Below are positions 9,951 to 50,183 of a stretch of 64,000 nucleotides of DNA, in pieces; the first letter of the stretch is position 1, and every line of letters begins with the position of its first letter. The stretch comes from an uncultured bacterium (GTDB lineage: Bacteria > Patescibacteriota > Minisyncoccia > Minisyncoccales > Minisyncoccaceae): positions 18,167 to 82,166 of the forward strand of contig CAWECB010000002.1 in assembly GCA_963807465.1 (NCBI GenBank), in the 5' to 3' direction. The notes beneath the pieces were generated by a model. It did no database searches. It saw nothing but the letters and a program-made list of their open reading frames with translations, and was not told where the DNA came from. The translations under genes were made by a program, and so were the position numbers.

Positions 9951-9951
9951 C

Positions 9952-10640: not shown

Positions 10641-10652
10641 TGGCGCCGAGCA

Positions 10653-11450: not shown

Positions 11451-11646
11451 GGGATGGCCGAGCTTTGATGAAGAAATTAACGGAAGAGTGAAGCACATTC
11501 CGGATCCGGACGGCGTAAGAACCGAAATCGTCTGCGCTACTTGCGGAGCACATTTGGGACATGTTTTCAAGGGAAAAAACTTCACCCCTAACGATACAAG
11601 ACATTGCGTGAATTCATTATCGATAAAATTCATACCTAAAAATTGA
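11449..11646 (+). pseudogene. msrB: peptide-methionine (R)-S-oxide reductase MsrB, C-terminal fragment only
   Basis: LGWPSFDEEINGRVKHIPDPDGVRTEIVCATCGAHLGHVFKG...RHCVNSLSIKF with stop TGA at 11644..11646. The frame upstream of GWPSF is unrelated high-GC sequence. Confidence 0.75.
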
Positions 11647-27674: not shown

Positions 27675-29143
27675 TTATGTAGGTTGTACTTTTTTAATAA
27701 TAGTTTTCTCTCCGGAGTCTTCAACGGTCCACCCCGTCTTTTCTATCTCTTTTCTTACTTCATCCGCCTTATCCCATTCTTTCTTTTTTCTTAATCCTTC
27801 TCTTTTTTGAATAAATTTCATAATTACTTTAGGAACGATGCTTGTGTCGCTTGTCCAGACGGGAATACCGTCTTTTTCTGTTTTAATGAAATATTTTGAA
27901 TCACTTACGTCTTTCGATTTGACTGAAGAAAGGCTTAATCCGAAAACCTTGTCGAAATCAATCAATAAATCGTATTTTTCCCGTCGGATAGTTCTTTGTC
28001 TTTCAACACGTCCCAAGCTATAGCCAAGGCGGAAGGAATATTTAAATCGTCATCGATGAAATCAATGAACTTATTTTCGTATTCGTTCAAATTTCTTTGA
28101 ATGTTTTTTTCTTTTGCCCTATTAGCCAATTCGGAAACCTTTTCGTAAAGCCTGTTCAAGCTGTTCTCCGGCGAATTCGACGCTTTCATCGCTGAAATAA
28201 GTTTTGAACGATAATGAGTTCCCAAACACAGATAACGGTAGGCGAGGGGAGCAACTGCCTTTTTCGGTTAAGCTCGACAAGGTGGCGATATTACCCAAGG
28301 ACTTACTCATTTTACCTTCCTTAACGATCAGGAATTCCCCGTGGAGCCAATAATTGCACATGTGTTTGCCGTATGCGGCTTCGGCTTGAGCAATCTCATT
28401 CGTATGGTGAATGAATATATGGTCGATTCCTCCGCAGTGGATATCAAAAGGAATCCCTAAATTATTCACACTCATGACTACGCACTCGGTGTGCCAGCCG
28501 GGAAAACCTACTCCCCAGGGAGAATCCCACTCCATCTGCCTTTTTTCGCTCTTAGGGCTGAATTTCCAGAGAGCGAAAGTCACATCTGTGTCTTTTTTCC
28601 TTGATCTCCTTCTATCCTTGCTTTGGTTTCTTTTCTTTCACTCTGTCCCCATAATCTTCCGTATTTCTCTAATTTCGACGTGTCGAAATACACTCCGTCG
28701 TCTAAGAATATAGGTGAATCCTTTATCCTCCAGTTTCTTGATTAGTTCTATCTGGTCCTTAATCGTATCCGTTGCCTTAATCCAGACATTCGGTTCGACA
28801 ATATTCAATGATTTTAATATCCTTCTTGAAAAAGTCCGTATAGAACTTGGCGATTTCCCAGACGGTCTTTCTTTCTTTCTTCGCTTCTTTTTCCAGTTTG
28901 TCTTCTCCAGTGTCGGAATCGGAAGTCAAATGCCCGACATCGGTGATGTTCATCACGTGCTTAACCTTATATCCGTTATACATTAAAACCCTCTTTAAAA
29001 GGTCTTCAAAGAGATAAGTCCGCATATTGCCGATGTGGGCGAACCAATAGACGGTCGGTCCGCAGGTGTACATGTCCGACTTCCTTGCCTTTAATTGATT
29101 TGAATTCTTCTTTTTTCTTGGTTAAGGTGTTGTATAGTTTCAT
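27675..29143 (-). pseudogene. cysS: cysteine--tRNA ligase, multiple frame changes
   Basis: [68 protein letters not shown] and the C-terminal KKEWDKADEVRKEIEKTGWTVED are spread over at least 5 ORF fragments. Confidence 0.85.
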
Positions 29144-29174
29144 GATTCCCATTATATCATTAATTTATTTTTTA

Positions 29175-30032
29175 TTAAAGATACCTTTCTCCGCGGTCGG
29201 GGAAGACGGTCACGATATTCACTCCCGGATTTTCAAGTCCGATCAGCCTTGAAAGATACATGGCCGCCCCAGAACTTGGTCCGACGAGGATTCCAGCCTT
29301 AGCGATTTCTTCCCTGGTTATAAGGCTTTCTCCGCCTCCAAGGTCATACACTTCATCTATAATTCAAAATTAATAATGGGGGGAACAAATCCGTCCTTAA
29401 AAGACCTTAATCCTTCTATAGTTTGGCCCTGGACTGGCTGGACTCCGATTATCTTTAATCTTCGGGATATTTTTCCTTCAATCTTTTTCCTATCCCGGTA
29501 ATGGTTCCGCCCGTTCCCATGCCGGCGACGAAGTAATCTATGCTTCCTTCCATCTGCTCCAATATCTCTTCGGCGGTTCCCTTGTAATGGGCCGAAGGAT
29601 TGGCAATATTGTCATACTGGTTCAAGAATACTAGGTTTTCGTCCTTGGATGCCATTTCCTCTGATGTCATCCAATACGCAACTTCTCTAAATTTAAATTT
29701 TCAACCAAGATTATCTTCTCCTCCGAAAGCCTTAATCATCTTGATCTTTTCCTTGCTGGTACTTTCGGGCATGACCACTTGTCTTGTATCCCTTCATGGA
29801 GGCCACCATGGCTAATCCGACACCGGTATTCCCGCTGGTCGGTTCTATAATGGTGTCTCCCTTCTTTAATATTCCCGCCTTCTCGGCTTCGTTGATCATA
29901 TTCAAGGCAATCCTGTCCTTGATCGAACCCGCCGGGATTGAATCCTTCCATTTTGGCGAATATCTTGCTGCCGTTATTCTCTTCTATTTTTACTAATGGC
30001 GTATTGCCGATGTATTCCAGAATCGTTTTCAT
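29175..30032 (-). pseudogene. cysK: cysteine synthase (O-acetylserine sulfhydrylase), multiple frame changes
   Basis: [35 protein letters not shown], then in other frames [41 protein letters not shown] and GPSSGAAMYLS. Confidence 0.8.
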
Positions 30033-30039
30033 GTATTTA

Positions 30040-30197
30040 TGTTTATATTAAACAAAAAATCTCTTGTTAAGAGATTAGTTATGTTGATTAAATTAAAGAA
30101 AAACTAATCTCTTAGTCTAGAGGAGGGCACAGGCAACAGATTAGATTAGTTTCGTATTTCATACTTTTTATTTTAGCAGAGAAAAAACCATTGTCAA
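30040..30197 (-). promoter_or_regulatory. cysK promoter (TTGACA at 30197-30192, TAAAAT) and leader with three mutually exclusive helices (attenuator-like)
   Basis: The minus-strand leader has four segments. A is AAACTAATCT, B is AGAGATTAGTTT, C is CTAATCTCTT and D is AAGAGATT followed by TTTTT. A:B gives 10 bp, B:C gives 10 bp, and C:D plus the U-run forms a terminator. Confidence 0.4.
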
Positions 30198-30237
30198 GAA
30201 ATTTGACATTATCTGTGTCATAGCATAATATCATCTT

Positions 30238-30418
30238 GTCGCACATTAACATCGGAATAGGGCTTGTCAGAGACGTATCGCGGTTAGTGTGTCGACCTGG
30301 AGGTGATCCGTTTCAGGGGCTTGTGTGCGCCCCCACTGTGGAGAAAGGAGAATGTCTGACTTAACCATACTCCTTGTCTCCACTTTATCAATTAATCATG
30401 AGCGTAGGCTCTTTTTTT
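30238..30418 (+). ncRNA. candidate small RNA unit 1 (promoter TTGACA 30203-08 / TAATAT 30226-31; weak hairpin + T7 end)
   Basis: The consensus promoter has a 17-nt spacer. Internal hairpins are GGGGC..GCCCC and TGGAGAAAGGAG..CTCCTTGTCTCCA. It contains GGAGGTGATCC (30299-30309). The only ORF reads through the next promoter. Confidence 0.3.
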
Positions 30419-30456
30419 ATTTGACAAAATCAGCACTAATTTTATATAATACAAGC

Positions 30457-30628
30457 ATCCAGTACATTGACATCATTAGAAGGGAGTATTGGTGTTGTGC
30501 TGGGTAAAAACTTTCGACAACCATTTAGTCGAATTCCTCCAAAGGGAGTGCGAGATGGGACATCGGTTGGAGAGTGTCCTCATCTCCGCAACTCTTCTTT
30601 AAAAATAAAGCGCTATATGCGCTTTTTG
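30457..30628 (+). ncRNA. candidate small RNA unit 2 (promoter TTGACA 30421-26 / TATAAT 30445-50; terminator AGCGC-tatat-GCGCT + T5)
   Basis: Consensus promoter and a clean intrinsic terminator bracket about 170 nt with no credible CDS. Confidence 0.3.
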
Positions 30629-30671
30629 TGCTTTAAAATTGACAAAAGTTAAAATATGAATAAATATAAAG

Positions 30672-31035
30672 ATGGCTCTTTTGAGCTAAATGAATAGCTA
30701 CAGTCACCACTCGTGTGCCCACAAGGCATGTCTCTGATTATTCCCTAAGGACAAAATCCTAAAGGAATTGTGTGACCTGAATCATTTCTCAACATTGGGA
30801 AAGGTTGTGCATCTAATAGGAGGCTACATCAAATCATGTGCATGCGCCGCAGGAAAATAACCATCATCGTGGTCCGAGGAACGTGTTGCCCGGCTTCCGC
30901 TTAACATAACAAGCCGAGAACCAGACACGCGAAAAAGTAAACATTTGTCCTTATGGGACAAAAAAGAGAGAAAGGGATGGTTGTGGAATAAAAACCACAA
31001 CCCCTCCTCACATTTTAAAGAGCTAAGGCTCTTTA
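30672..31035 (+). ncRNA. candidate RNA unit 3 (promoter TTGACA 30639-44; terminal hairpin AAAGAGC-taag-GCTCTTT)
   Basis: About 360 nt with 5-prime GGCTCTTT complementary to 3-prime AAAGAGCT, and long imperfect hairpins (GGTTGTGG..CCACAACC, CGGCTT..AAGCCG). It sits where ffs often lies upstream of dnaX, but I could not find the SRP domain IV motif. Confidence 0.25.
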
Positions 31036-31073
31036 TTGCATTTTATTATGAAAAAAGATAAAATTAATTATCT

Positions 31074-32174
31074 ATGTCAAACTTAGTATTATACCGCAAA
31101 TACCGACCGCAGAATTTCAAAGAGTTCTTCGGGCAGGAACACGTGGTCAAGACGATAATGAATGAAATATCTTCCGGCATGATTTCCCATGCCTATTTGT
31201 TTTCCGGGCACAGGGGAACGGGAAAAACAACTTTGGCCAGATTGTTCGCCAAGGCAATCAACTGCCAAAATTTGAAAGGTGCGGAGCCGTGCAACAAATG
31301 CCCCTCCTGCTTGGAGATAAACAACGGAAGGGCGGTTGATATTATCGAGATTGATGCAGCTTCAAACAGGGGAATCGATGAGATAAGGAGTATCAGGGAA
31401 GGAATAAAATTCACTCCGACTTTTCTCAAATACAAAGTCCTGATTTTAGACGAAGCCCACCAATTATCCAAAGATGCGGCCAACGCTCTTTTAAAGATAC
31501 TGGAGGAACCACCTTCATATGCAGTTTTTATTTTAGCAACGACCGAAGCGCACAAAATGATTCCGACAATCGCGTCCCGCTGCCAAAGGTTCGATTTCTA
31601 TAAATTGACCTTCGACCAGATGGTTGAAAAGCTGATCTTTCATTTGCAAAAAAGAGGGGATTGATATCGAAAAAGAAGCTTTGGGCTTGATTGCTTCCGG
31701 CTTCGGAAGGTTCGATGAGGGACGCCGAAGGAACACTAAACCAGGTTTTGAATTTCCTGCCCGATACGGAAGATAAAGGCGGAGGACGTTCAAATGCTTC
31801 TGGGACTGGTTGATATACACTTGGTGGTTGAGCTGGCCAATTATTTGATCAAAAAAGACAAAGCCGGAGCTTTGAAGTTTTTAAACGAAAACATTGAAAA
31901 GGGAATGGACATTCCCGAATTCACTGGAACTTTCATTGACTATTTGAGAAAATTGCTTATCCTTAAGATTGATTCCGGCTTGATCGGTTCGGTAATGCCC
32001 GGAGAGACCAAGGAGGTGGAAGGAAACGGCCCAAAAACAGGCGGGGGAATTCAGCGAAGAAAATCTGAAAAAGCCCTCAATCTTCTTCTGGATGCGGACA
32101 ACAAGAGTAAATACGCTTCAATACAGCAACTGCCTCTCGAGCTGGCCATGATTGAATCGATTGGAATCGAATAA
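31074..32174 (+). pseudogene. dnaX: DNA polymerase III subunit gamma/tau, about 3 frame changes in the 3-prime half
   Basis: YRPQNFKEFFGQEHV, GHRGTGKTTLARLFAK, Zn module CNKCPSCLEINNG, ILDEAHQLS and ATTEAHKMIPTIASRCQRF. The later parts (GSMRDAEGTLNQV, LLGLVDIHLVVELANY) lie in other frames. Confidence 0.85.
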
Positions 32175-32178
32175 CTAT

Positions 32179-32252
32179 TGCGGGATCGTCTAAAGGTAGG
32201 ACAGTGGCCTTTGAAGCCATTAATCTTGGTTCGAGTCCAAGTCCCGCAGCCA
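32179..32252 (+). tRNA. tRNA-Gln (anticodon TTG), CCA encoded
   Basis: Acceptor TGCGGGA/TCCCGCA (U1:A72 as in bacterial tRNA-Gln), anticodon loop CTTTGAA, T-arm CTTGGTTCGAGTCCAAG, discriminator G plus CCA. Confidence 0.9.
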
Positions 32253-32311
32253 CAGTCAGCGCGTTATCGAGGCCGACCAGAGTGCCTCAATTAGCAGATT
32301 AATCACAGAAC

Positions 32312-32345
32312 ACAAAACCACCAAATGTCTGGTGGTTTTGTGTTT
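32312..32345 (+). terminator. intrinsic terminator downstream of tRNA-Gln
   Basis: 12-bp stem ACAAAACCACCA / TGGTGGTTTTGT with loop AATGTC, followed by GTTT. Confidence 0.6.
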
Positions 32346-32397
32346 ACAGAGCGTCTTAATTGTGATAAATTAAAGTTATACGAGTAAGGTTTTATAT

Positions 32398-32622
32398 ATG
32401 GAAAACAAATCACAAAAATCACAAAAATCCCAAATTGGCGTGACTATACGTAAACTCAGAAACAAACTCGGGCTCTCCCAGGATGCACTATCCAAAAGAG
32501 CCGATTTGGCATTTCATACAATTGCGAAAATTGAATCTGGGTCGACCCCCGATCCCCGAATTGATACGGTTAAAAAAATAGCGAACGCGCTTGGCGTTAC
32601 GCTTGATGATTTAATCAAATAA
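32398..32622 (+). CDS. XRE-family helix-turn-helix regulator (controller-like, first gene of operon)
   Basis: 74 aa. IRKLRNKLGLSQDALSKRADLAFHTIAKIESGSTPDPRIDTVKKIANALGVTLDDL is a classic HTH_3 fold. The stop is 2 nt before the MTase ATG. Confidence 0.85.
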   Translation: MENKSQKSQKSQIGVTIRKLRNKLGLSQDALSKRADLAFHTIAKIESGSTPDPRIDTVKKIANALGVTLDDLIK

Positions 32623-32624
32623 AT

Positions 32625-33716
32625 ATGGCAACAAAATCTTTAAATACGGGTCTCAAGAAAGCGGGCGTAGCAAAAAAAGACGAATTTTATACGCAACTTG
32701 TCGATATTGAGAAAGAGATAAAACACTACAAAGATCAGTTCCGCGGTAAAGTTGTTTACTGCAACTGTGACGATCCGTTTGAGAGCAATTTCTTCAAATA
32801 TTTTGCCGCCAACTTTAAAGCACTTGGATTGAAGAAACTTATCACAACGAGCTATGTGAAATCGCCGATTGCTGGAAAACAAATACCGTTGTTTGAGATG
32901 GAGGGACTTAAGCCAGACGGCAAAGAGCCGTACGTGGTGGAGATAAATGAAGTACCGGATATTAACAACGACGGCGCGATAAGTTTGGAAGATGTCGAGG
33001 CACTACTTAGACGTAATAAAAAATCATCTCGGAAATTACAGGGTAACGGCGATTTCCGAAGTGAAGAATGTATTGAATTACTCAAAGAAGCTGACGTTGT
33101 GGTCACGAATCCTCCATTTTCACTCTTTCGTGAATATATTGCCCAGCTTGTCGAATACAATAAGAAGTTTCTGATTATCGGTAATGTAAATGCGATTACT
33201 TACAAGGAATCTTTTAAGCTTATAAAAGATAATAAAATGTGGCTCGGTGCCAGTATTCATAGTGGCGACCGTGAGTTTCGTGTGCCTGACCACTACCCAC
33301 TTGAGGCCGCAGGGTTTCGTGTAGACGAAAAAGGTAATAAATACATTCGCGTCAAAGGGGTGCGCTGGTTTACCAATCTCGATTATGAAGAACGCCACGA
33401 AAATTTAATATTATATAGGAAATATTCATCTAATGAATATCCAAAATACGACAACTATGATGCGATTGAAGTCTCCAAAACCGCAGATATTCCCATGAAT
33501 TATAGAGACGCTATGGGTGTGCCGATTACGTTTCTTGATAAATATAATCCCGAACAGTTTGAGATATTGGGTCTAGCAAATGACAAGAGGGAAATAGATA
33601 AAGCGTTCATACAAGGCAACGAATTTAATTTAGATGAGCAACACAAAAGATTTGTGGGTATGGTATTAAATAAAAAGGCTACTTATGCACGTATTTTAAT
33701 TAAACAAAAAAAGTAA
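32625..33716 (+). CDS. N6-adenine DNA methyltransferase, EcoRI-methylase-like family
   Basis: N-terminus KKDEFYTQLVDIEKEIKHYKDQFRGKVVYCNCDDPFESNFFKYF and catalytic VVTNPPFSLFREY (NPPF motif). Confidence 0.8.
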   Translation: MATKSLNTGLKKAGVAKKDEFYTQLVDIEKEIKHYKDQFRGKVVYCNCDDPFESNFFKYFAANFKALGLKKLITTSYVKSPIAGKQIPLFEMEGLKPDGKEPYVVEINEVPDINNDGAISLEDVEALLRRNKKSSRKLQGNGDFRSEECIELLKEADVVVTNPPFSLFREYIAQLVEYNKKFLIIGNVNAITYKESFKLIKDNKMWLGASIHSGDREFRVPDHYPLEAAGFRVDEKGNKYIRVKGVRWFTNLDYEERHENLILYRKYSSNEYPKYDNYDAIEVSKTADIPMNYRDAMGVPITFLDKYNPEQFEILGLANDKREIDKAFIQGNEFNLDEQHKRFVGMVLNKKATYARILIKQKK

Positions 33717-33717
33717 T

Positions 33718-34809
33718 ATGAAAATCGATCTACAAAAAATTAAAATCCGAAAAGTCGTTACTGGCTACAAAGACAGTGCTGAAGAAGGTGTGGTGGCCTA
33801 TGGTGGTAAGCTGGATATTCGGCCAAAATATCAGCGTGAATTTGTGTACAAGGAAAAACAGCGCGATGCAGTGATAGAAACTGTTAAAAAGGGTTTTCCG
33901 TTGAATGTGATGTATTGGATGATTAGAGATGATGGTGGCTACGAAGTGCTGGATGGACAACAGCGCACTATTAGCATTGGGCAATATGTTACTGGTGATT
34001 TTTCCATGAATAATCGCTTTTTCCATAATTTAACCAAAGAGGAGCAGGATAAAATTTTGGATTATGAACTGATGATTTATCTTTGTGAAGGCACCGATAA
34101 AGAGCGAATCGATTGGTTTACGGTCATAAATACATACGGAGAAAAGGTGAACGAGCAAGAAATTCGCAATGCGGTATATACCGGCCCGTGGCTTTCTGAT
34201 GCAAAACTCAAATTCAGCAAATCGAACTGCGCGGCATATCTCTTGGCGAATGATGGTGGACAGTTGGTCAGTGGCTCGCCAATCAGACAGGAGTATTTAG
34301 AGACAGCGCTTTCGTGGATTAACGACGGCAAGATCGAGGACTATATGGCCAAGCACCAGCATGATAAAGATGCTAACGAGCTGTGGGAATATTTCCAAAA
34401 AGTTATTGAATGGGCAAGAAAAACTTTTCCCAATTATCGCCGCGAGATGAGCGGTGTATCGTGGGGCGAGCTGTATAACGAGTTCAAAGGCAAAAAATTC
34501 GATTCAAAGAAATTGGAAAAGGAAATAACCGAGTTGATGCAAGACGAAGATGTAACTAAAAAATCAGGCATCTACGAATATGTTTTGAATGGCAGTGAAA
34601 GGGCGTTGAACATTCGTGCCTTTACGGACAAACAAAAGAGAGAGGCGTATGAAAGTCAAAAAGGCATTTGCGCAAAATGTAAAAAGCATTTTGAGATAGA
34701 AGAAATGGAAGCAGATCATATCAAACCTTGGCATGAGGGCGGAAAAACAATTGCTACAAATTGTAAGATGTTATGTAAACAGGATAACAGGACTAAATCC
34801 GGGAAATAA
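33718..34809 (+). CDS. DUF262 (ParB/GmrS-like) domain protein with C-terminal HNH endonuclease
   Basis: IRPKYQREFVY and LDGQQRTISIGQY are DUF262 signatures. The C-terminus CAKCKKHFEIEEMEADHIKPWHEGGKTIATNCKMLCKQDNRTK is an HNH motif. The start is 1 nt after the MTase stop. Confidence 0.85.
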   Translation: MKIDLQKIKIRKVVTGYKDSAEEGVVAYGGKLDIRPKYQREFVYKEKQRDAVIETVKKGFPLNVMYWMIRDDGGYEVLDGQQRTISIGQYVTGDFSMNNRFFHNLTKEEQDKILDYELMIYLCEGTDKERIDWFTVINTYGEKVNEQEIRNAVYTGPWLSDAKLKFSKSNCAAYLLANDGGQLVSGSPIRQEYLETALSWINDGKIEDYMAKHQHDKDANELWEYFQKVIEWARKTFPNYRREMSGVSWGELYNEFKGKKFDSKKLEKEITELMQDEDVTKKSGIYEYVLNGSERALNIRAFTDKQKREAYESQKGICAKCKKHFEIEEMEADHIKPWHEGGKTIATNCKMLCKQDNRTKSGK

Positions 34810-34830
34810 CCACATTGAATGTAAAAATTT

Positions 34831-37392
34831 ATGGAAGATAGTAGAACACCATTCGTAAAAGAAGTTGCAAAGACCATCACCGAACGTCACGGGAACGAGA
34901 GCGGGTCTTTTATCTTTGGCATATCTGGTAAATGGGGTGAAGGCAAAACTCGTTTTTTAGATGAATTAAAGGAAATTTTAGAAAAAGACAATTCACCGTT
35001 CAAAGTTGTTGATATAAATCCATGGAAATTCTCTGTCGATAGAATCTCTTTTTTAAGAAATTTTCTACGCACCTTATACGGAAAGTGCGGTTCGGAGAAC
35101 GAGAATGATTTAAAACAGTTGGATGTCGACACATCAGAAAATGCAATCGATTGGGGGCGTTTTGCAAAATTCGTTGTATTACTTGCGATTATTTGTTTGG
35201 CTTTTACTTATACCCCTCTTTTTAATTTCGTTGTCAGTCTCCCTGCGCAATGGCAATTTTTTCTTACCGTTCTATTTCTTCCAATAGTTTTAGCTGCTAT
35301 TCAAAGTGTGGTTACGGTTCAAAAGACGGATCACGCTATCGTAACTCTAGATAAATTCGACGATCTACTTGGGGAAATACTAATAAAATTTAAGGCAGCA
35401 GAGAAAAAAATTATTGTCTTTGTGGATGATCTTGATCGCGTAACTCCAGAAATGGCAAGAGATGTTTTAGATAATCTCCGTACATTCTTTGATAAAAAGG
35501 AAATTACGTTTGTTGTGACGGGCGATCATACAGTACTCGAAGGCCATCTCGGAAGAAGTTTATTGCCTGACGAAGAATCTTCCGCCGCTCAACTCGAGGA
35601 AGGGCGAAGATTTATGAAAAAAATTTTTAACGTATACTGGCGCCTACCGCTACCAATCAAGAAGGAACTTCAAGATTTTATTAAAGGTGAGTTCCAAAAG
35701 AAGGAGGCGGGGCTGAAAGAAGTATTTTCAGAAGAAAACCAGAAAACTACTTTTGCTATATATTTGGAGAAATATTTTGAAAGCAACTTTAGGCAAATAA
35801 TTCGATTTTTGGACACAGTTCTCTTCAACTTCCAAATCATAAAACAAAAAGCTGAGAGTGAAGATGCGCAACAAGCGCCATACTTTAAAGATATGTTAGC
35901 CAATCCGTTGCTTGTGGTGCGGATCCTTATGATTCAAGAGTTATGCGCCCCTCTTTTTGATAAAATGGTCAGAGATGTTTCTATCTTGCAGGGGCTTGAA
36001 TACGCAGTTGAGAAAAAGGATTCTTCCAAAATAAGTGGAATTTTCGAACAAAGCAAAGATGTTCTTTCTCCTAGTCAACGAGCTTTCATGGAAAAGTTTA
36101 TTTATGAAGAACCCCATTTTTATAAAGCTTCTCAGTTACAGGTTTTAAATCTCCAGCCGTATCTTTCATTAGCCGCTGATGTGAGTTTTGGCGATCAAAG
36201 AGGTCCATCAAGTGAGGATTTTATGGCAACACTAAATGGAGGTGATCCAAAGGCTGTCAAAAACGATCTCCTTTCTATGGGTGACGTCAAGGCACAGGAT
36301 GGAGCAAATGCCTTAGCGACCGCATTACCTTCAATAACTGATATAACGCAAAAGCAATCCGCGCTTAAGACACTCCTTACTGCTTTATCTGATTCACCTG
36401 CAGAGTTAACGATACATAAAATTTTTGCTAAGAAGTTAGCTGAACTCGATTACAGTTTTGTAAATGATGCTGCCTCTAATCTGAAAATGGATATTCTCAA
36501 CCCCTTTTTCCATTGGCTTGATCTTATCGCCGACATTGAAACAACGAAATTATTTAAGGATAAATTCACCCTAAGAGACCCTGCTGAGTTCAACGCCACG
36601 ATCAGTGAAAATGCAGGCTCTTTTAAAAGCTTAGTATTAGCGAAGTGGTTAAAAGATTACTACCCAACAAATAAACCCGAGGCTATAGCTTTGATGATCC
36701 AGCATTTTCCGAAACTAAAAATCGAGCAGGTATGCGAGCAGATGGATCTTGTTAGCGACTCTCTTATCGCAGACATCATCGGAGACGCGAATGCTCAGCT
36801 AAGAGAAAATCGGTCGGAGTTGCTGAAAGGCTATACGACAAAGGGTGTGGCAGATCTAAAGAAAAACATACTTGATCAAGTTTCCAATCTTGATCAAGGA
36901 ATTACTGCTTGGGCTATCACGAAAGCAAATGAAGAAAAACCTTTTTGGTCCAGAACTGAAATCGAATTACGAGTTCTTGTAAAGATTGATGAATCTACGG
37001 ATTTTAACACTCTTAGTCAGGGGTTACGATTTGCAATTGCCAATAACATCGGCACCCCGGAAACTATTTGGCCGAAGCTGATGCCCAAGCATAAAGACTT
37101 ACTCATTGAAAACCTGCCAACCATCGTCGATGACGCATCTTTTCAAGCCATTGCGCCTCTCCAAGCTTATGCGAATCAGCTTATGGACGCAGTTGTGGAT
37201 AAAGTTAAGGCAGTTCCGGAAACCGATCAAGCTCGTTGGCTTGGCTATATCGTAAAAGGTAAGTGGCTTTGGGTTAACCTCACCAAATATCCTATTGCAA
37301 GTAAGTTTAGGAGTTTGAAGAAGTCAAAAGATGATGGTATCAAGCAGGCGTTAAGTAGTGCCGAAGAAAGTTGGAAAGAAAAAGTATCTTAG
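34831..37392 (+). CDS. KAP-family P-loop NTPase with two transmembrane helices inserted in the NTPase domain
   Basis: Walker A GISGKWGEGKTRF, TM pair FVVLLAIICLAFTYTPLF / FFLTVLFLPIVLAAIQSVV, Walker B KKIIVFVDDLDRV, then about 600 aa of uncharacterised C-terminal sequence. Confidence 0.85.
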   Translation: MEDSRTPFVKEVAKTITERHGNESGSFIFGISGKWGEGKTRFLDELKEILEKDNSPFKVVDINPWKFSVDRISFLRNFLRTLYGKCGSENENDLKQLDVDTSENAIDWGRFAKFVVLLAIICLAFTYTPLFNFVVSLPAQWQFFLTVLFLPIVLAAIQSVVTVQKTDHAIVTLDKFDDLLGEILIKFKAAEKKIIVFVDDLDRVTPEMARDVLDNLRTFFDKKEITFVVTGDHTVLEGHLGRSLLPDEESSAAQLEEGRRFMKKIFNVYWRLPLPIKKELQDFIKGEFQKKEAGLKEVFSEENQKTTFAIYLEKYFESNFRQIIRFLDTVLFNFQIIKQKAESEDAQQAPYFKDMLANPLLVVRILMIQELCAPLFDKMVRDVSILQGLEYAVEKKDSSKISGIFEQSKDVLSPSQRAFMEKFIYEEPHFYKASQLQVLNLQPYLSLAADVSFGDQRGPSSEDFMATLNGGDPKAVKNDLLSMGDVKAQDGANALATALPSITDITQKQSALKTLLTALSDSPAELTIHKIFAKKLAELDYSFVNDAASNLKMDILNPFFHWLDLIADIETTKLFKDKFTLRDPAEFNATISENAGSFKSLVLAKWLKDYYPTNKPEAIALMIQHFPKLKIEQVCEQMDLVSDSLIADIIGDANAQLRENRSELLKGYTTKGVADLKKNILDQVSNLDQGITAWAITKANEEKPFWSRTEIELRVLVKIDESTDFNTLSQGLRFAIANNIGTPETIWPKLMPKHKDLLIENLPTIVDDASFQAIAPLQAYANQLMDAVVDKVKAVPETDQARWLGYIVKGKWLWVNLTKYPIASKFRSLKKSKDDGIKQALSSAEESWKEKVS

Positions 37393-37402
37393 TTTAAATT
37401 GA

Positions 37403-38740
37403 TTAATTTTGAACTGACAACTTTTTATCTCTTAAAATTAATTTATTCTTGACGCATCCGAGTAGTTCTCGTTTCTCCTCCATTGTTCCTCCGTTCAGCA
37501 CGTGAGTCGCGTACCGCTTTGCGTCAAAGTCTTTCTCAAGAGCACCCTTATCGTGAATATTAAGGAACGCTTTTTGAAATTTGGCCATTCGCTTGTATTC
37601 TTCATCGAACTTCTTTTTTATAATTCCCTCATTCATCTCTAAATTTCCGATGACTGCCACTAGTTGTTTAATGACTTCCTCTTCTCTGATATAACCTTCT
37701 TTACACTGTAGGTTTCTCGATCGGTTACAGCCATAATAGACATAATGAGCCATATCGCCGCTGGCAAGTTTTTTGTATTTATCTTCTGCCGTCACTCCTG
37801 ATCCACAGCGTCCACAAGTCATCATCCGCGAAAATGCGAATTGTTTGTCGATAAATTTTATCTCTGAACGCTTGAGTTGCTCTCGAGCCTTTTCAAAAAC
37901 TTCTCTCGTAATGAGCGGCGTATGTTGTCCTTTGTACCAATTTCCGCTACCCATCGGATATTCAAATGTTCCGTAAAAGAAAGGTGTTTGCAGTAAGCGA
38001 TAAATATTACTCAACGTCAGCGGTTTATTACTCGTCGCACTTCGGAAGTTCATTTCGAATTTCAGCCAATGATATATTTTTCTGCCACTCCAGCCTTCAA
38101 AAGCCACCTTCTCAAACATCTGTTTCATTACAGGGCCACGTTCAGGATCAACCATTACATATCCTTTTCTGTCGATTCGTTTTTCATTTAAATATCCTGT
38201 TGGAGCCGGAGCTGGCCACAGCCCCATCTCACAACGCATTCGGAGTCCTCTTTTTACATTCACACTTTTGTTGTCATTTTCCAATTTCGCCTGACTACAG
38301 AGAATCATCAGTAGAAATTTTTCGTTTGGATTATTCGTGAATTTTTGCCCGAATGTTTTAATCTCATATAAAAGTTTCTGATCCATGAGATCGACTAGCG
38401 AACCCAAGTCTCCGGCATTTCTCGAAAGACGATCGGGTGCCCAAGTTAGGATTCCTGTATATCGTCCACTTCGGATGTCAGCGAGAATTTCAGTAAAGAC
38501 CGGACGCTGTCCCGAATCTTTTGCCGAATGCGACTCTCTCCGGATATCGACGATCTCTAGTCCGTCACGCTCGGCAAGTTGAAGCATCTCTTTAATTTGG
38601 CTCTCAATAGAGAGGACTTGGCGTTCTTCGCTCTCGGTTGATTTACGCGCGTAAAGGCAATATTTGACCTTTACCGGAGGCTCAATTGGCTTTGGGGTCT
38701 GAGCCTCCACCGACCCTATTGGTGGTTGTTGATTTCTCAT
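37403..38740 (-). CDS. large serine recombinase (resolvase/invertase N-domain + recombinase domain + zinc ribbon)
   Basis: YCLYARKSTESEERQVLSIESQ is the catalytic Ser region. Also present are LTWAPDRLSRN, CGRCGSGVT...YVYYGC and a coiled-coil tail. ATG 38740 is preferred over TTG 38761. The gene is convergent, with its stop 10 nt from the KAP gene stop. Confidence 0.85.
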   Translation of the reverse strand: MRNQQPPIGSVEAQTPKPIEPPVKVKYCLYARKSTESEERQVLSIESQIKEMLQLAERDGLEIVDIRRESHSAKDSGQRPVFTEILADIRSGRYTGILTWAPDRLSRNAGDLGSLVDLMDQKLLYEIKTFGQKFTNNPNEKFLLMILCSQAKLENDNKSVNVKRGLRMRCEMGLWPAPAPTGYLNEKRIDRKGYVMVDPERGPVMKQMFEKVAFEGWSGRKIYHWLKFEMNFRSATSNKPLTLSNIYRLLQTPFFYGTFEYPMGSGNWYKGQHTPLITREVFEKAREQLKRSEIKFIDKQFAFSRMMTCGRCGSGVTAEDKYKKLASGDMAHYVYYGCNRSRNLQCKEGYIREEEVIKQLVAVIGNLEMNEGIIKKKFDEEYKRMAKFQKAFLNIHDKGALEKDFDAKRYATHVLNGGTMEEKRELLGCVKNKLILRDKKLSVQN

Positions 38741-38930
38741 ACAACTCAAGTAATGCCGCAACCCTCTTGGGTAGTCCAGGCCAGAAAAGGAGGTAAACTG
38801 TTGGTAACTTTTTATCGCTGAAAACCCAACAATCCATTGTCAGGGCTTAAAAATTTTGATATCATTGAAAATGACAACTGAATAATAGAGACGGCCTAAA
38901 CCAGATATTTTATTTGGCATGGCCAAAAGA

Positions 38931-38975
38931 CCCAATGACGATACTGAACCCCGCGTTCAGCAACTCGTCATTGGG
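38931..38975. repeat. 45-bp nested imperfect palindrome (candidate recombinase or regulator site)
   Basis: CCCAATGACGA..TCGTCATTGGG outer arms (11 bp) and CTGAAC-cccgc-GTTCAG inner arms. No U-run follows, so it is not a typical terminator. Confidence 0.5.
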
Positions 38976-39066
38976 CTATATACCGAAAGGTGTATAGGGC
39001 CGTAAGGCCTAGCTAGCGCGGGGCTTAGTGTTTATATACAAGTCCTCGCGCCATCTACCTAAAATT

Positions 39067-39972
39067 ATGGCGCTATTTTTTACCCAAAACGGAACAACAA
39101 AAAAGATACCGACCGTCAAAGTCGGTCTGGAAAAGGATGTGCAGAAACTTTTCGAGAAAAACCTCGATGAGATTTTAAATATCCATTTTTTGGCAACTGA
39201 ATACTCGACTAGTTCTGGCGGTAGGATTGATAGTCTTGGCATCGACAACAATGGTTCACCCGTAATCATTGAGTACAAACTGTCTCAAAATGACAACGTT
39301 ATTAACCAAGGACTGTCCTACCTCCGTTGGCTCCTAGACCATAAAGACGCCTTCGAGACACTGGTGCGTAAAGCGAGTGTTGATATTGAAATCGACTGGG
39401 CATCGCCCAGGGTTATTTGTGTTGCGGAGAGCTATAACAAATTCGATCTGGATACCGCCGATCTTTTACCAATGGATATCGAACTTTTGCGCTACAGACT
39501 TTATGAAAATGACATCTTGCTGGTAGAACCAGAAGTTCAGCGCAAAGTGAAAATTTCAACCTCTGAAATTTTCTCAAAAATTGAAAAGCACGAATTCAAA
39601 GAAAAAATCCATTACACCGTTGATGACCATTTAAAATCAGCCAGCGATGTTGTTCGTGAACTGTTCGCTCTCATCAAAGAAAAAATATCAGCTCTCGATG
39701 AATCAATTATTGAGGAACCAAAGGCAAAATACATTGCATATAAATTAACTACCAATTTTTGCGATGTAGTGGTACTAAAAGATTCCCTCAAAATTTTTCT
39801 GAATGTTTCAAGTGGTGAGCTAGAAGATCCATCGGGCATGGCACGCGATCTTACAAAACCGAAACCAATCGGACACTGGGGTAACGGCGACTATGAGGTA
39901 AAACTCGAAAAACAGGAGGATATAGACAAGATTATGGATTTAATAAGACAAAGCTATAACTACAACAAATAA
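39067..39972 (+). CDS. PD-(D/E)xK nuclease-like (NucS/DUF91-type) protein with DUF5655-like C-terminal domain
   Basis: GGRIDSLGIDNNGSPVIIEYKLSQ..VINQGLSYLRWL matches the D..ExK core of NucS-like endonucleases. ATG 39067 is the likely start. Confidence 0.6.
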   Translation: MALFFTQNGTTKKIPTVKVGLEKDVQKLFEKNLDEILNIHFLATEYSTSSGGRIDSLGIDNNGSPVIIEYKLSQNDNVINQGLSYLRWLLDHKDAFETLVRKASVDIEIDWASPRVICVAESYNKFDLDTADLLPMDIELLRYRLYENDILLVEPEVQRKVKISTSEIFSKIEKHEFKEKIHYTVDDHLKSASDVVRELFALIKEKISALDESIIEEPKAKYIAYKLTTNFCDVVVLKDSLKIFLNVSSGELEDPSGMARDLTKPKPIGHWGNGDYEVKLEKQEDIDKIMDLIRQSYNYNK

Positions 39973-40279: not shown

Positions 40280-40744
40280 ATGAACGAAGAAAAAATCATC
40301 AAAAAAGAAGATAAGCTCGATTGCAAAGTTGGACTATTCGGAAAAAGAGGAAGTCTGGTACTTACAACTTCAGAACTGTATTTCCTCTCGGGTAAAGATA
40401 AAGTATTTTCGGTTCCGTTAAAAGACATCTTAAGTACAAATGCCCGAAAAGGTCTCGGAAACGGAATCGATCATCTTTTCGTTATTTTTAACGAAAACGG
40501 CAAAGAGAGAAAAATTAAAATACAGCACTTGGCTTTCTGGGCAGGGACAGCAATGGGTAATATGACTCAACTTCGCGAACCGTATTTCAGGTCATGGGAA
40601 ACCGCCATAGAAAATGCCCGATTCGGCGAAGATACGGCTCAGAATAATTTAAACGATCTTGAAAAATTGGCTGATCTTAAAACAAAGGGCGTGATTACTG
40701 AAGAGGAATTTCAGGCGAAGAAGAAGCAATTACTCGGGTTATAG
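40280..40744 (+). CDS. PH/GRAM-like domain protein with C-terminal SHOCT domain
   Basis: The C-terminus LEKLADLKTKGVITEEEFQAKKKQLLGL is a SHOCT motif. The N-terminal GSLVLTTSELYFLSG region is bacterial PH-like. Confidence 0.6.
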   Translation: MNEEKIIKKEDKLDCKVGLFGKRGSLVLTTSELYFLSGKDKVFSVPLKDILSTNARKGLGNGIDHLFVIFNENGKERKIKIQHLAFWAGTAMGNMTQLREPYFRSWETAIENARFGEDTAQNNLNDLEKLADLKTKGVITEEEFQAKKKQLLGL

Positions 40745-42762: not shown

Positions 42763-43398
42763 ATGGGTACAGTATATAAACAACTTACATATCGAATCTC
42801 GAGCATTCCCATTACAAAGGGTCTGACTTACGTTATTGCAGAAGATCCGGAAATAAAGCTTGAATGGGAAACAACCACAATCAAGAAAAAGCTTTATTTG
42901 GACGTTCTTGAAAAGACCATGGGAACCACTTTGGCGATTTGCCATCATATCGGTATTACCCGAGGGACTTTTTATAACTGGATCAACAGCGATGCCGATT
43001 TCAAGTCCGCAGTTTACCGGATGAAAGAAGAAGTCCTGAATGATATTGAGGAAACGCTAATTAAATCGGCTCTTGAAAAAAATATTCAGGCGGCTAAATT
43101 TATACTTGGGAAAAAACATCCGGATTATAAAAAACAGCCAAAAGAAAACATGGAAACCGTTGTGCACATTCACCATCACGCAACGCCACCAGGAGAAAAA
43201 GAAGACGCTGAAATTAATATCGGTCTCGATGAGCTTTTTATAATGTCTGAAGAAAAGGATCTTAGTCAACTCACTCCCGATGGGATGAGAACTTATAAAA
43301 AGTATAAACAGCTTGCTGATTTCATAAAGTGGGAATACGGAATAACAGACGAGAAGCCTAAAACCAAGGAAGATTTTGAAAAAGAGAAAAATGCGTAA
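42763..43398 (+). CDS. phage-type HTH protein (terminase small subunit-like N-terminus)
   Basis: LYLDVLEKTMGTTLAICHHIGITRGTFYNWINSDADFKSAV...AAKFILGKKHPDYK resembles phage small-terminase/HTH_23-type proteins. Confidence 0.45.
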   Translation: MGTVYKQLTYRISSIPITKGLTYVIAEDPEIKLEWETTTIKKKLYLDVLEKTMGTTLAICHHIGITRGTFYNWINSDADFKSAVYRMKEEVLNDIEETLIKSALEKNIQAAKFILGKKHPDYKKQPKENMETVVHIHHHATPPGEKEDAEINIGLDELFIMSEEKDLSQLTPDGMRTYKKYKQLADFIKWEYGITDEKPKTKEDFEKEKNA

Positions 43399-49876: not shown

Positions 49877-50183
49877 GCATTCGAACGAAGGTGTAATCCA
49901 ATGGGTTGCACCTATAGTCAGACAAGACTAATAAAATCCTGGATTGTTATAATCCTGTTTTTTTATACCCAAATTAACCTCAAAAATGTATTTTTACTTT
50001 TGTGTCAGAAAAAGCCGATGGTCTTGACAAAGTATGATAAATGATTTATTATCGTTATGTTCATAAAAATATCTTGGTTTCTTGTTTTTACACTATAATA
50101 ACTTAATAAATTACCCTGTCTAAAATTTTGCTTTGTCGCATCTCGCTAAAAAGCATTTTGATAAACTTGGTAAAATAAATATT

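What the first reader, a model, noticed from the sequence alone, without database searches (positions are those of the whole stretch)
32253..38761. tRNA-Gln-adjacent operon XRE - EcoRI-like m6A MTase - DUF262/HNH nuclease - transmembrane KAP NTPase with a convergent large serine recombinase: candidate composite defence system
Seen in sequence: four co-oriented intact genes are packed with 2-nt, 1-nt and 21-nt gaps. They begin 145 nt after a tRNA-Gln and its terminator. A large serine recombinase converges on them, its stop 10 nt from the KAP stop. Motifs are NPPF (MTase), YQR plus DGQQR (DUF262), DH..N..C HNH, and GKWGEGKT, two TM helices and VFVDDLDR (KAP). An AT-rich dyad (TTAAT-tgtgata-AATTAA, 32356-32374) lies upstream of the XRE gene, like a controller box. 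Established knowledge: DUF262-HNH proteins (GmrSD/BrxU type) act as modification-dependent nucleases, KAP/transmembrane NTPases occur as standalone defence genes, and XRE C-proteins time R-M expression. Inference: this is an R-M-like module joined to a membrane NTPase sensor/effector, carried on a 6.5-kb serine-recombinase cassette. I do not know this combination as a named system. It lies in a CPR-like genome, where defence repertoires are poorly charted.
Basis: partly seen in the sequence, partly recalled or inferred. Interest (0 to 1): 0.85.

Follow-up and report, generated by a model that had tools for sequence, protein, structure and literature searches.

The report
Restriction system plus membrane-NTPase defence rider
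This is an ordinary restriction-modification operon with a separate, portable membrane ATPase defence gene attached to its end, on a mobile island beside a tRNA gene; the four genes are not one new system, but in these tiny-genome bacteria the ATPase gene repeatedly sits at the tail of unrelated restriction operons.

Summary
In detail: gene coordinates, spacings, motifs and all Pfam domain calls hold.

- XRE–MTase–DUF262/HNH is a self-contained Type II R-M of a very common family. PADLOC's Type II REase model matches the nuclease end to end (4e-142). The nuclease is always paired with an EcoRI-family MTase, so it is not a GmrSD-like modification-dependent enzyme.
- The 853-aa KAP protein is a separate, gene-sized module. 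Other copies of this R-M lack it.
- Near-identical KAPs (75–90%) follow Type I HsdR, SNF2/PLD + Eco57I-like systems or fused MTases, or stand alone beside a serine recombinase.
- KAP has a P-loop with an inserted two-helix TM hairpin and a 500-aa α-solenoid found only in this family, which comes mostly from Patescibacteria. This architecture matches Tmn and the recently validated single-gene KAP defences.
- The serine recombinase belongs to a clade that recurrently travels with KAP on phage-like elements.

The most likely reading is two stacked defences on a mobile tRNA-Gln island.

The one new point is positional. Across 34 loci, R-M genes lie only upstream of KAP and co-oriented with it (8/30 at −1). 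None of the 122 downstream ORFs is an R-M gene. Interest is moderate.

The parts
32179..32252 (+). tRNA-Gln(UUG), the left landmark of the island. The same tRNA, after dnaX, precedes the KAP island in L001.
   Evidence: ARAGORN; Rfam; L001 tRNA-Gln(ttg)
32309..32344 (+). Perfect 15-bp-stem hairpin followed by a T-rich tail. It is a probable terminator that insulates the operon from the tRNA.
   Evidence: inverted repeat I20
32343..32373 (+). Promoter-like site TTTACA-17-TAAATT overlapping the AT-rich dyad TTAATT-N6-AATTAA (32356-32373). The operator role is unproven.
   Evidence: shuffle test (about 10% by chance); not conserved in L165/L166
32398..32622 (+). XRE/HTH_3 regulator in the position of a C-protein. 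It is conserved (72% id) in the L165/L166 copy of the R-M and absent from other copies.
   Evidence: (PADLOC Control_protein 4.8e-11)
32625..33716 (+). EcoRI-family N6-adenine DNA methyltransferase (NPPF motif).
   Evidence: Pfam EcoRI_methylase 3.6e-151; PADLOC MTase_II 2.1e-128
33718..34809 (+). DUF262 + HNH restriction endonuclease, the cognate Type II REase of the MTase.
   Evidence: PADLOC REase_II PDLC03418 4e-142, residues 1-363 against 1-372/372 of the model; Pfam GmrSD_N + HNH; conserved pairing with the MTase
34831..37392 (+). KAP-family P-loop NTPase with a two-helix TM hairpin inserted between Walker A and Walker B, plus an all-alpha solenoid of about 500 aa. It is a portable, gene-sized defence module.
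   Evidence: nucleotide homology to other loci is confined to this ORF
37403..38740 (-). Large serine recombinase (the ORF is extendable to a TTG at 38761). It belongs to a clade found beside KAP in at least 7 loci.
38893..39010 (+). LOOT RNA (RF03000). The same RNA lies 115-130 nt after the KAP stop in L180 and L002, so it may belong to the same mobile-element backbone.
39028..39972 (+). Neighbouring DUF5655 protein, equivalent to the PADLOC candidate single-gene defence PDC-S18. It makes the region a defence island but is not part of the operon.
   Evidence: 6.5e-98
42763..43398 (+). Small-terminase-like HTH protein. It is a distant homologue of the TerS-like gene of the KAP-carrying phage-like elements and may be a remnant or the right-hand part of the island.

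Best explanation
The locus is two independent defence modules stacked in one transcription unit, on a mobile island associated with a serine recombinase and lying next to tRNA-Gln.

Module 1 (XRE-MTase-REase) is a conventional Type II restriction-modification system.
- The EcoRI-family enzyme N6-methylates adenine in host target sites.
- The DUF262-HNH enzyme cuts unmethylated incoming DNA.
- The XRE protein probably regulates the operon.

Module 2 (KAP) is a self-contained membrane sensor-effector of the Tmn/EF_KAP kind.
- The P-loop domain is anchored in the membrane by a helical hairpin inserted between Walker A and Walker B.
- The cytosolic alpha-solenoid is the likely sensor of a phage component.
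- By inference, NTP hydrolysis drives a membrane-level response (ion export, plasmolysis or depolarisation) that arrests infections which escape restriction.

KAP is a gene-sized cassette that recurrently ends up as the last gene of R-M operons of unrelated types, or next to its companion large serine recombinase on phage-like elements.

Shown: domain identities, architecture, modularity, positional bias and element linkage.
Inferred: enzymatic activities, target site, trigger, effector mechanism and co-transcription.
For: R-M module:
- The nuclease matches a Type II REase HMM over its full length, and the MTase matches a Type II MTase HMM.
- Pfam EcoRI_methylase scores 3.6e-151.
- The M-R pair is conserved in CPR, Elusimicrobiota and other phyla (top 120 hits at least 83% identical).
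- On plasmids of cultured bacteria it stands alone as a tight two-gene unit.

KAP is independent of this R-M:
- Copies of the same R-M lack KAP (L167-L179).
- L165/L166 carry a non-homologous 567-aa membrane protein in the same slot, 21 nt after the REase.
- KAP relatives at 73-90% identity follow Type I HsdR (L001, L002; 4-nt gap) or DUF262-HNH REases (L090, L093), or have a serine recombinase or a D12-MTase fragment on the opposite strand upstream (L084, L085).
- More distant relatives follow SNF2/PLD + Eco57I-like MTases, MTase fusions or EcoEI-type HsdR.
- Nucleotide homology to L001, L002, L084 and L085 begins 1-10 nt before the KAP ATG and ends 1-11 nt before the end of the ORF.
- KAPs do not cluster by partner type: window[Type II] pairs with L001[Type I] at 83%, and L090[Type II] pairs with L002[Type I] at 90%.

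KAP architecture:
- Walker A and B with two TM segments between them.
- AlphaFold model with pLDDT 87: a P-loop with a TM hairpin and an all-alpha region at residues 340-853.
- Foldseek finds RdrA and Orc1/Cdc6 for the N-terminal half, and importin-alpha/PP2A-A HEAT/ARM solenoids.
- The solenoid occurs only in this family: 87 clusters among 1.84e9 representatives.

Literature:
- Tmn is a single-gene TM P-loop defence whose solenoid arms sense a phage protein and cause plasmolysis; it has no conserved operon (PMC13001434; 10.1101/2022.08.21.504612).
- KAP NTPases fused to unknown C-terminal regions defend on their own and were found through linkage to serine recombinases (PMC13552941).

Mobility:
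- The recombinases beside KAP in the window, L003, L095, L097, L180, L197 and L200 form one clade at 45-63% identity.
- ParB-MTase, TerS-like and TerL-like genes recur with them.
- One such element is an IMG/VR viral contig.
- tRNAs flank several of these islands.
Against: - No experiment exists for any member of this KAP family or for this R-M in CPR bacteria.
- PADLOC reports only partial N-terminal hits (PifA, QatA, PDC-S20) and no Tmn hit. 'Works like Tmn' therefore rests on architecture, not homology.
- The strictly upstream, co-oriented and tightly spaced placement of R-M genes is more than simple island clustering predicts. It could reflect functional coupling rather than mere stacking.
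- The island borders and att sites were not found.
- The census covers 34 loci, many of them truncated, out of more than 240 family members.
Confidence: 0.65

Rival explanations
1. R-M-coupled backup (guard) model. The KAP-solenoid protein is functionally tied to whichever R-M operon it terminates. It might sense anti-restriction proteins or failed restriction, as PrrC does for EcoprrI, or it might synergise through nucleotide depletion. In that case the operon would be a true two-layer system, though a generic one rather than one specific to this gene set.
For: - R-M genes are co-oriented at position -1 in 8/30 loci and at -2 in 6/24, and are never found among 122 downstream ORFs.
- Gaps are 4-40 nt, with the KAP ATG placed just after the upstream stop codon.
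- Re-association with both Type I and Type II systems occurs within a narrow KAP clade.
- A different membrane protein occupies the same slot after the same R-M in L165/L166.
- Tmn synergises with the R-M-linked PrrC and with ATP-sensing systems (10.1101/2022.08.21.504612; PMC13001434).
Against: - About two thirds of the loci show no R-M next to KAP. L003, L084, L180 and L197 have KAP next to only a recombinase.
- The partners are mechanistically unrelated: HsdR, HNH REase, SNF2/PLD and MTase fusions. That argues against a specific protein contact.
- KAP does not co-diverge with partner type.
Confidence: 0.2
2. XRE, MTase, DUF262/HNH and KAP form one integrated, previously unnamed four-gene defence system, with the nuclease acting as a modification-dependent enzyme and KAP as its membrane sensor/effector.
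For: - Tight spacing and co-orientation in the window.
- The same four genes plus the recombinase appear in a second sample (L164).
- L090 keeps the REase-KAP adjacency (REase 77% and KAP 82% identical).
Against: - L164 is the same strain-level cassette (99.985% identity), so it is not independent evidence.
- Other copies of the R-M lack KAP.
- Other KAPs lack this R-M.
- The nuclease matches a Type II REase model over its full length and is always paired with an MTase.
- No PADLOC multi-gene candidate system was hit.
Confidence: 0.07
3. Mobile-element function. KAP primarily serves the phage-like element that carries the serine recombinase, for example in superinfection exclusion or inter-element competition (like PifA on F, or Tmn in plasmid leading regions). 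Its adjacency to R-M genes simply reflects a cargo hotspot at the element's end.
For: - A serine recombinase of one clade is the immediate neighbour of KAP, or within two genes of it, in the window, L003, L097, L180, L197 and L200. More distant recombinases lie near KAP in L084, L088, L006 and L098.
- A conserved ParB-MTase/TerS-like/TerL-like module is present in L002, L087, L095, L180 and L200.
- L180 is classed as viral in IMG/VR.
- LOOT RNA recurs next to KAP.
- Phage and satellite hotspots that carry defence genes are known (PMC9122126).
Against: - The window has no intact prophage to the right of the recombinase, only one TerS-like gene followed by cellular genes.
- L001 has KAP at tRNA-Gln with no recombinase within 10 kb.
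- A hotspot model does not by itself explain why R-M genes are only upstream and co-oriented.
- This rival overlaps the best explanation rather than excluding it.
Confidence: 0.25

Closest known systems
Type II restriction-modification systems with a controller (C) protein; specifically the EcoRI-family MTase + DUF262/HNH REase pair covered by PADLOC models MTase_II PDLC03297 and REase_II PDLC03418
   Same: - Full-length HMM matches to both enzymes.
- The M and R genes are tightly linked, as in many other genomes and plasmids.
- A small HTH protein lies upstream, as in C-protein-controlled systems.
   Different: - The gene order is C-M-R in one operon, not the common C-R unit with a separately transcribed M.
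- No recognisable conserved C-box.
- The target sequence is unknown.
- The named REBASE prototype could not be identified with the tools on hand.
Tmn (transmembrane P-loop NTPase defence; Gao 2020 naming recalled from memory; mechanism in PMC13001434)
   Same: - Two TM helices inserted between Walker A and Walker B.
- A long alpha-helical, solenoid-like C-terminal region.
- A single-gene module found in varied contexts, on mobile elements and next to other defences.
   Different: - No PADLOC Tmn hit at E<=0.01. Pfam places this protein in KAP_NTPase, whereas Tmn is described as YobI family.
- 853 aa, against about 1270 aa for the E. coli Tmn clades.
- Named sources are mostly Patescibacteria, a phylum not in the reported Tmn distribution.
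- Tmn shows no conserved operon, whereas this family has a directional bias to the 3' end of R-M operons.
[quoted passage not shown]
   Same: - A KAP_NTPase domain with TM helices plus a large uncharacterised C-terminal region.
- Genetic linkage to serine recombinases.
- Proposed single-gene antiphage function that needs both Walker B and the C-terminal region.
   Different: - Those proteins were found next to small serine recombinases in Firmicutes and gut metagenomes. Here the partner is a large serine recombinase in CPR bacteria.
- No detectable similarity in the C-terminal region: the solenoid is confined to 87 clusters of this family.
- Untested experimentally.
PrrC / EcoprrI (an anticodon nuclease embedded in a Type I R-M locus)
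   Same: A second-line defence gene is physically embedded in, and co-expressed with, an R-M operon. That is a plausible analogy for a backup role.
   Different: - PrrC is a soluble ABC-type ATPase-HEPN RNase bound to one specific Type Ic enzyme.
- The KAP protein is a membrane NTPase with no nuclease domain.
- It follows many unrelated R-M types, or none.
GmrSD / BrxU / SspE (DUF262 + DUF1524 Type IV enzymes)
   Same: The N-terminal DUF262 (GmrSD_N) domain with the DGQQR motif.
   Different: - The C-terminal nuclease matches PF01844 HNH; no DUF1524 match was reported.
- It is always paired with a cognate MTase.
- It is classed with Type II REases by HMM.

Membership tests
Type II R-M system | SAM-dependent DNA methyltransferase with a catalytic (D/N)PP(Y/F) motif | tested here: met
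   Pfam EcoRI_methylase 3.6e-151 over residues 10-362; NPPF visible in the translation; PADLOC MTase_II 2.1e-128
Type II R-M system | Adjacent separate endonuclease homologous to known Type II REases | tested here: met
   PADLOC REase_II PDLC03418 4e-142, query residues 1-363 against 1-372/372 of the model; HNH domain 1.4e-10
Type II R-M system | The M and R genes co-occur as a conserved pair across genomes | tested here: met
   Seen in L165-L179, in plasmid hits annotated 'DUF262 protein | EcoRI family methyltransferase', and in Aeromonas and Macrococcoides plasmids
Type II R-M system | Cleavage of a defined unmethylated site that is blocked by the cognate methylation | not testable with these tools
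   Palindrome-avoidance analysis was uninformative. This needs biochemistry or methylome data.
C-protein-controlled R-M | Small HTH regulator with a conserved palindromic C-box operator upstream of its own gene | tested here: inconclusive
   HTH_3 1.5e-15 and PADLOC Control_protein 4.8e-11. The dyad is expected by chance in about 10% of shuffles and is not conserved in L165/L166.
GmrSD/BrxU Type IV restriction | DUF262 N-terminal domain plus a DUF1524 (His-Me) C-terminal nuclease | tested here: not met
   GmrSD_N is present at 1.3e-16. The C-terminus matches PF01844 HNH, and no DUF1524 hit was reported at E<=0.01.
GmrSD/BrxU Type IV restriction | Stand-alone, with no cognate methyltransferase | tested here: not met
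   An EcoRI-family MTase is present in every copy with enough flank held
KAP family P-loop NTPase (Pfam PF07693) | [quoted passage not shown] | tested here: met
   118.3 bits against a cut-off of 20; GKWGEGKT at residue 33 and IVFVDD at residue 195
Tmn defence system | Two TM helices inserted within the P-loop domain, between Walker A and Walker B | tested here: met
   Hydropathy segments at about aa 105-135 and 137-165; AlphaFold helices 108-135 and 139-160 flanked by core strands
Tmn defence system | Solenoid-like alpha-helical C-terminal arm | tested here: met
   All-alpha residues 340-853 at pLDDT about 90; Foldseek hits to importin-alpha, PP2A-A and other HEAT/ARM proteins
Tmn defence system | Sequence membership (a match to the Tmn profile used by PADLOC) | tested here: not met
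   PADLOC hits at E<=0.01 were PifA, QatA and PDC-S20 only, all N-terminal and partial
Tmn defence system | Anti-phage activity that depends on NTPase motifs; decameric membrane complex | not testable with these tools
   Requires expression, phage challenge and structural work
Qat system (QatABCD) | QatA equivalog score and QatB/C/D neighbours | tested here: not met
   NCBIfam QatA scores 59.5 bits against a cut-off of 600; no Qat partners are among the neighbours
Large serine recombinase | Resolvase catalytic domain + Recombinase domain + zinc beta-ribbon | tested here: met
   All three Pfam domains are above threshold; CcrB and XisF are the best NCBIfam hits, both below their cut-offs
Integrated mobile island bounded by att sites | Identifiable attL/attR or comparison with an empty site | tested here: inconclusive
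   No flanking direct repeats were found, though serine recombinases need only a 2-bp core. L164 breaks at the tRNA and inside LOOT, which may reflect conserved sequence rather than element ends. No empty site was found.

The most novel reading that the evidence does not exclude
The KAP-solenoid family, found mostly in CPR bacteria, could be a dedicated 'R-M rider'. In this reading it is a membrane sensor-effector selected to be co-transcribed as the last gene of any restriction operon (Type I, Type II or SNF2/PLD + Eco57I-like). It would act as a generic backup that fires when restriction is evaded or inhibited. That would be a modular, type-independent R-M/abortive-response coupling, in a phylum whose defence repertoire is otherwise dominated by R-M. 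It may be delivered by a family of phage-like elements that carry a large serine recombinase and also the orphan LOOT RNA.
Probability: 0.2. Interest if true: 0.7.

Novelty: new variant of a known kind. Interest (0 to 1): 0.42.

Why it matters
As first framed, as a new four-gene system, the finding does not hold. It is a known kind of Type II R-M plus a single-gene membrane NTPase defence of a recently validated kind.

What is worth keeping is the KAP family itself:
- It is compact (87 clusters at 50% identity) and comes mostly from Patescibacteria.
- It has a private α-solenoid sensor domain.
- It behaves as a gene-sized cassette.
- In this sample it always sits at the 3′ end of R-M operons of unrelated types, never 5′ of them.

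If that bias reflects function, it gives a simple and testable example of layered immunity (restriction first, membrane shutdown second) in ultra-small symbiotic bacteria, where non-R-M defences are poorly charted.

It also links an orphan structured RNA (LOOT) and a specific large-serine-recombinase clade to a recurrent CPR mobile element.

Tried and rejected
- **att sites.** A search for direct and inverted repeats across 30–48 kb found nothing beyond chance matches.
- **C-box.** Footprinting the dyad against L165/L166 showed no conservation. The shuffle test gave about 10% by chance.
- **R-M target site.** Palindrome avoidance in the 40%-GC part of the window shows GATC as the most depleted 4-mer and AATT as normal. 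GAATTC is absent from the cassette, but only about 3 copies are expected. This was uninformative.
- **Solved structures by sequence.** The REase and KAP gave only a generic HNH hit and an RdrA hit at E about 1e-3.
- **Prophage to the right of the recombinase.** PHROGs and Pfam found only one TerS-like gene. The rest are ArsR/ArsP and cellular genes.
- **GTDB representative-genome scan.** It returned mostly generic KAP NTPases and only about 9 true family members. The metagenome scan added about 20.
- **Plasmid tblastn with KAP.** Only distant hits at 21–26% identity, none covering more than 53% of the query, to QatA-type proteins.
- **Small proteins directly upstream of KAP.** The 166–239-aa proteins in L086, L087, L011 and L092 have no Pfam or PADLOC hit and are not homologous to each other.
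- **LOOT RNA literature.** Nothing functional is published in the held library.
- **REBASE prototype.** I could not identify the named prototype behind PADLOC model PDLC03418.
Full report
**1. Observation**

- Four co-oriented ORFs lie on the + strand: 32398-32622 (74 aa), 32625-33716 (363 aa), 33718-34809 (363 aa) and 34831-37392 (853 aa). The gaps between them are 2, 1 and 21 nt.
- They start 145 nt after tRNA-Gln(UUG) at 32179-32252.
- A perfect 15-bp hairpin (32309-32344) lies between the tRNA and the operon.
- A convergent ORF (37403-38761, − strand) ends 10 nt from the KAP stop.

Pfam confirms every domain call: HTH_3, EcoRI_methylase (3.6e-151), GmrSD_N/DUF262 + HNH, KAP_NTPase (5.1e-34), and Resolvase + Recombinase + Zn_ribbon_recom.

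The KAP protein has Walker A at residue 33 and Walker B at residue 195, with two hydrophobic segments between them.

An independent short-read contig (L164) matches window 32178-38981 at 99.985% identity. The cassette is therefore real. On that contig the recombinase is called from the ATG that corresponds to window position 38740.

The AT-rich dyad at 32356-32373 exists and overlaps a promoter-like site. It is weak evidence for an operator:
- About 10% of dinucleotide shuffles of the 53-nt region contain an equivalent inverted repeat.
- It is not conserved upstream of the 72%-identical XRE in L165/L166.

**2. The first three genes are a standard Type II R-M**

- PADLOC's Type II REase model PDLC03418 matches the DUF262/HNH protein over its whole length (4e-142; residues 1-363 against 1-372 of 372). 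MTase_II matches the methylase at 2.1e-128.
- The nuclease family is very large and well conserved. All 8000 scored candidates passed E<=1e-10, and the top 120 hits are at least 83% identical, across CPR, Elusimicrobiota, Omnitrophota and Zixibacteria.
- Wherever enough flank was held, it is paired with an EcoRI-family MTase.
- On plasmids of cultured bacteria the pair stands alone as a tight two-gene unit.
- The C-terminal nuclease matches PF01844 HNH, and no DUF1524 match was reported.

These points together exclude the GmrSD/BrxU-type modification-dependent reading.

XRE is present in the L165/L166 copy but absent from the L167-L179 copies. Those copies instead carry small unrelated genes inserted between M and R.

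**3. KAP is not a conserved partner of this R-M**

- In L165/L166 (REase 89% identical), the gene 21 nt after the REase is a 567-aa protein with about 3 N-terminal TM segments and no P-loop. It is not homologous to KAP.
- L167-L179 have no fourth gene of this kind.
- Conversely, the KAP protein has more than 240 relatives, the listed ones nearly all full length, at 29-80% identity. The few that carry a source name come mostly from Patescibacteria.

Their contexts differ widely:

| Locus | KAP identity | What lies next to KAP |
|---|---|---|
| L001, L002 | 75-76% | 4 nt after Type I HsdR |
| L090 | 82% | after a 77%-identical DUF262-HNH REase |
| L093 | 81% | after a 35%-identical DUF262-HNH REase |
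| L089 | 34% | after an EcoEI-type HsdR |
| L010 | 33% | after an 837-aa MTase fusion |
| L011, L099 | 28-31% | after an SNF2 helicase (with a PLD domain in L011) + Eco57I-like MTase |
| L200 | 51% | after HsdM-HsdS-x-HsdR-YgjP |
| L003, L084, L180, L197 | 39-75% | next to only a serine recombinase |

**4. KAP is a gene-sized module with a directional bias**

- Nucleotide homology between the window and L001, L002, L084 and L085 starts 1-10 nt before the KAP ATG. It ends 1-11 nt before the end of the ORF.
- In a positional census of 34 loci, R-M genes are co-oriented at position −1 in 8 of 30 loci, at −2 in 6 of 24, and at −3 in 2 of 21. They occupy none of the 122 ORF positions from +1 to +5.
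- In the window, L001, L002, L090 and L093 the KAP start codon follows the upstream stop by only 4-21 nt. This fits co-transcription.
- KAP does not co-diverge with its partner. Over the first 227 aa, window[Type II] pairs with L001[Type I] at 83%, and L090[Type II] pairs with L002[Type I] at 90%.
- The window and L001 both sit just after dnaX and tRNA-Gln(UUG). At this one chromosomal site KAP is the constant element and the R-M is the variable one.

**5. What the KAP protein is**

- The AlphaFold2 model, built from 59 sequences, is confident (mean pLDDT 87).
- It shows an N-terminal P-loop domain with an inserted helical hairpin (helices 108-135 and 139-160). Residues 340-853 form an all-α region.
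- Foldseek places the NTPase half nearest RdrA of RADAR and Orc1/Cdc6. The C-terminal half resembles HEAT/ARM solenoids such as importin-α and PP2A-A.
- A full HMMER scan of 1.84 billion cluster representatives with the C-terminal 514 residues finds only 87 clusters. In the full-length hits the match lies C-terminal to the KAP domain.
- PADLOC and NCBIfam give only partial N-terminal hits, to PifA, QatA (59.5 bits against a cut-off of 600) and PDC-S20. There is no Tmn hit.

Literature that bears on function:
- Tmn is a single-gene defence with two TM helices inserted in the P-loop. It forms a decamer whose solenoid-like arms bind phage RIIB. This triggers ATP turnover, Mg2+ export and plasmolysis. 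It has no conserved operon (PMC13001434; 10.1101/2022.08.21.504612).
- KAP NTPases fused to C-terminal regions of unknown function protect on their own. They need both Walker B and the C-terminal region, and they were found through linkage to small serine recombinases (PMC13552941).

The window protein therefore works like these proteins by architecture. By sequence it is not a member of Tmn.

**6. Mobility**

- The recombinases next to KAP in the window, L003, L095, L097, L180, L197 and L200 form one clade at 45-63% identity.
- A conserved ParB-MTase (67-79% identity), a TerS-like gene and a TerL-like gene accompany KAP in L002, L087, L095, L180 and L200. L180 is an IMG/VR viral contig.
- In the window only a distant TerS-like gene survives, at 42763-43398. 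The rest of the right flank is ArsR/ArsP and cellular genes, so no intact prophage is present.
- tRNA genes flank several of the islands.
- No att repeats were found. That is expected for serine recombinases, and it leaves the borders undefined.

**7. Mechanism and rivals**

*Best explanation (confidence 0.65).* The locus is two independent defence layers in one transcription unit on a mobile tRNA-Gln island.
- The R-M methylates host DNA and cuts unmethylated incoming DNA.
- The membrane-anchored KAP NTPase senses a phage component through its solenoid and uses NTP hydrolysis to impose a membrane-level arrest.
- Shown: domain identities, modularity, positional bias and element linkage.
- Inferred: activities, trigger and effector mechanism.

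*Rivals.*
- A generic R-M-coupled guard role (0.2). The strict upstream-only bias and a second, unrelated membrane protein in the same slot support it. R-M-free loci and the diversity of partners weigh against it.
- A primarily element-serving exclusion function (0.25). This overlaps the best explanation.
The lack of co-occurrence largely refutes it.

**8. Novelty and score**

- The R-M belongs to a known family.
- The KAP gene is a new subfamily of a known kind of single-gene defence, found mostly in CPR bacteria.
- The '3′ rider on diverse R-M operons' pattern is not described in the papers I could read, and the Tmn paper explicitly reports no conserved operon. It rests on 34 loci here.
- I rate the finding as a new variant of a known kind, with interest 0.42.

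Noticed in passing
window 38893-39010 (+); L180 8568-8697; L002 8034-8163; L087 3698-3814: LOOT RNA (Rfam RF03000, 76-88 bits, full-length matches) recurs in KAP loci, always on the KAP strand. It lies 115-130 nt after the KAP stop in L180 and L002. In the window the recombinase gene sits between KAP and LOOT. The held literature reports no function for LOOT. It may belong to the CPR phage-like element that carries the serine recombinase.
   Followed up: partly
window ~11,400-11,600 (1-11,400 against the rest): GC content falls abruptly from about 0.60-0.65 to about 0.41. This could be a chimeric join or mis-binning, or a large foreign block. The first 11 kb may not belong to the same organism as the cassette.
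   Followed up: no
window 28777-32174: The housekeeping genes just left of the cassette are fragmented. There is a 98-aa piece of CysRS. Cysteine synthase (PALP) is in at least two pieces, probably three. DnaX is split into 196-aa and 126-aa ORFs. The cassette genes are intact. This points to pseudogenisation or local indel errors.
   Followed up: partly
window 39028-39972 (+): A DUF5655 protein matches the PADLOC candidate single-gene defence PDC-S18 at 6.5e-98. This makes the region a small defence island. An 82-aa ORF with no hits and a SHOCT-domain protein (40280-40744) follow it.
   Followed up: no
L167-L179, L090, L165/L166: The EcoRI-family MTase / DUF262-HNH REase pair has insertion slots for accessory genes. 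Between M and R there is a 165-aa protein with no hits (L167) or a 201-aa T5orf172/PDC-S57 protein (L175). A protein of at least 278 aa lies upstream of the REase in L090. After R there is a 567-aa three-TM protein with no hits (L165/L166).
   Followed up: partly
L002, L087, L095, L180, L200 (and L008): A conserved CPR mobile-element backbone was seen: ParB-N6_N4 MTase (67-79% identity), a TerS-like HTH protein of 133-159 aa, and a GpA-like large terminase. It usually comes with a large serine recombinase of one clade and a KAP gene. No structural phage genes were seen in the held flanks, so it may be a satellite-like element.
   Followed up: partly
L001 4183-4255 and window 32179-32252: dnaX followed by tRNA-Gln(UUG) precedes the KAP island in two different Patescibacteria, with a Type I R-M in one and a Type II R-M in the other. 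This looks like a conserved integration or exchange hotspot. tRNAs also abut the recombinase 3' ends in L006, L084 and L098, and precede the C-M-R trio in L165.
   Followed up: partly
window 50133-53942 (+): A 1269-aa protein carries repeated MBG/YDG domains and a C-terminal dockerin. It is probably a large surface or adhesion protein and is unrelated to the finding.
   Followed up: no
L003 12564-12782 (-) and L197 9818-10036 (-): A 72-aa XRE-type HTH gene (62% identical between the two loci, and not homologous to the window XRE at E<=1e-4) converges on the 3' end of KAP in the loci where KAP sits next to only the recombinase. It may be a regulator of the element.
   Followed up: no
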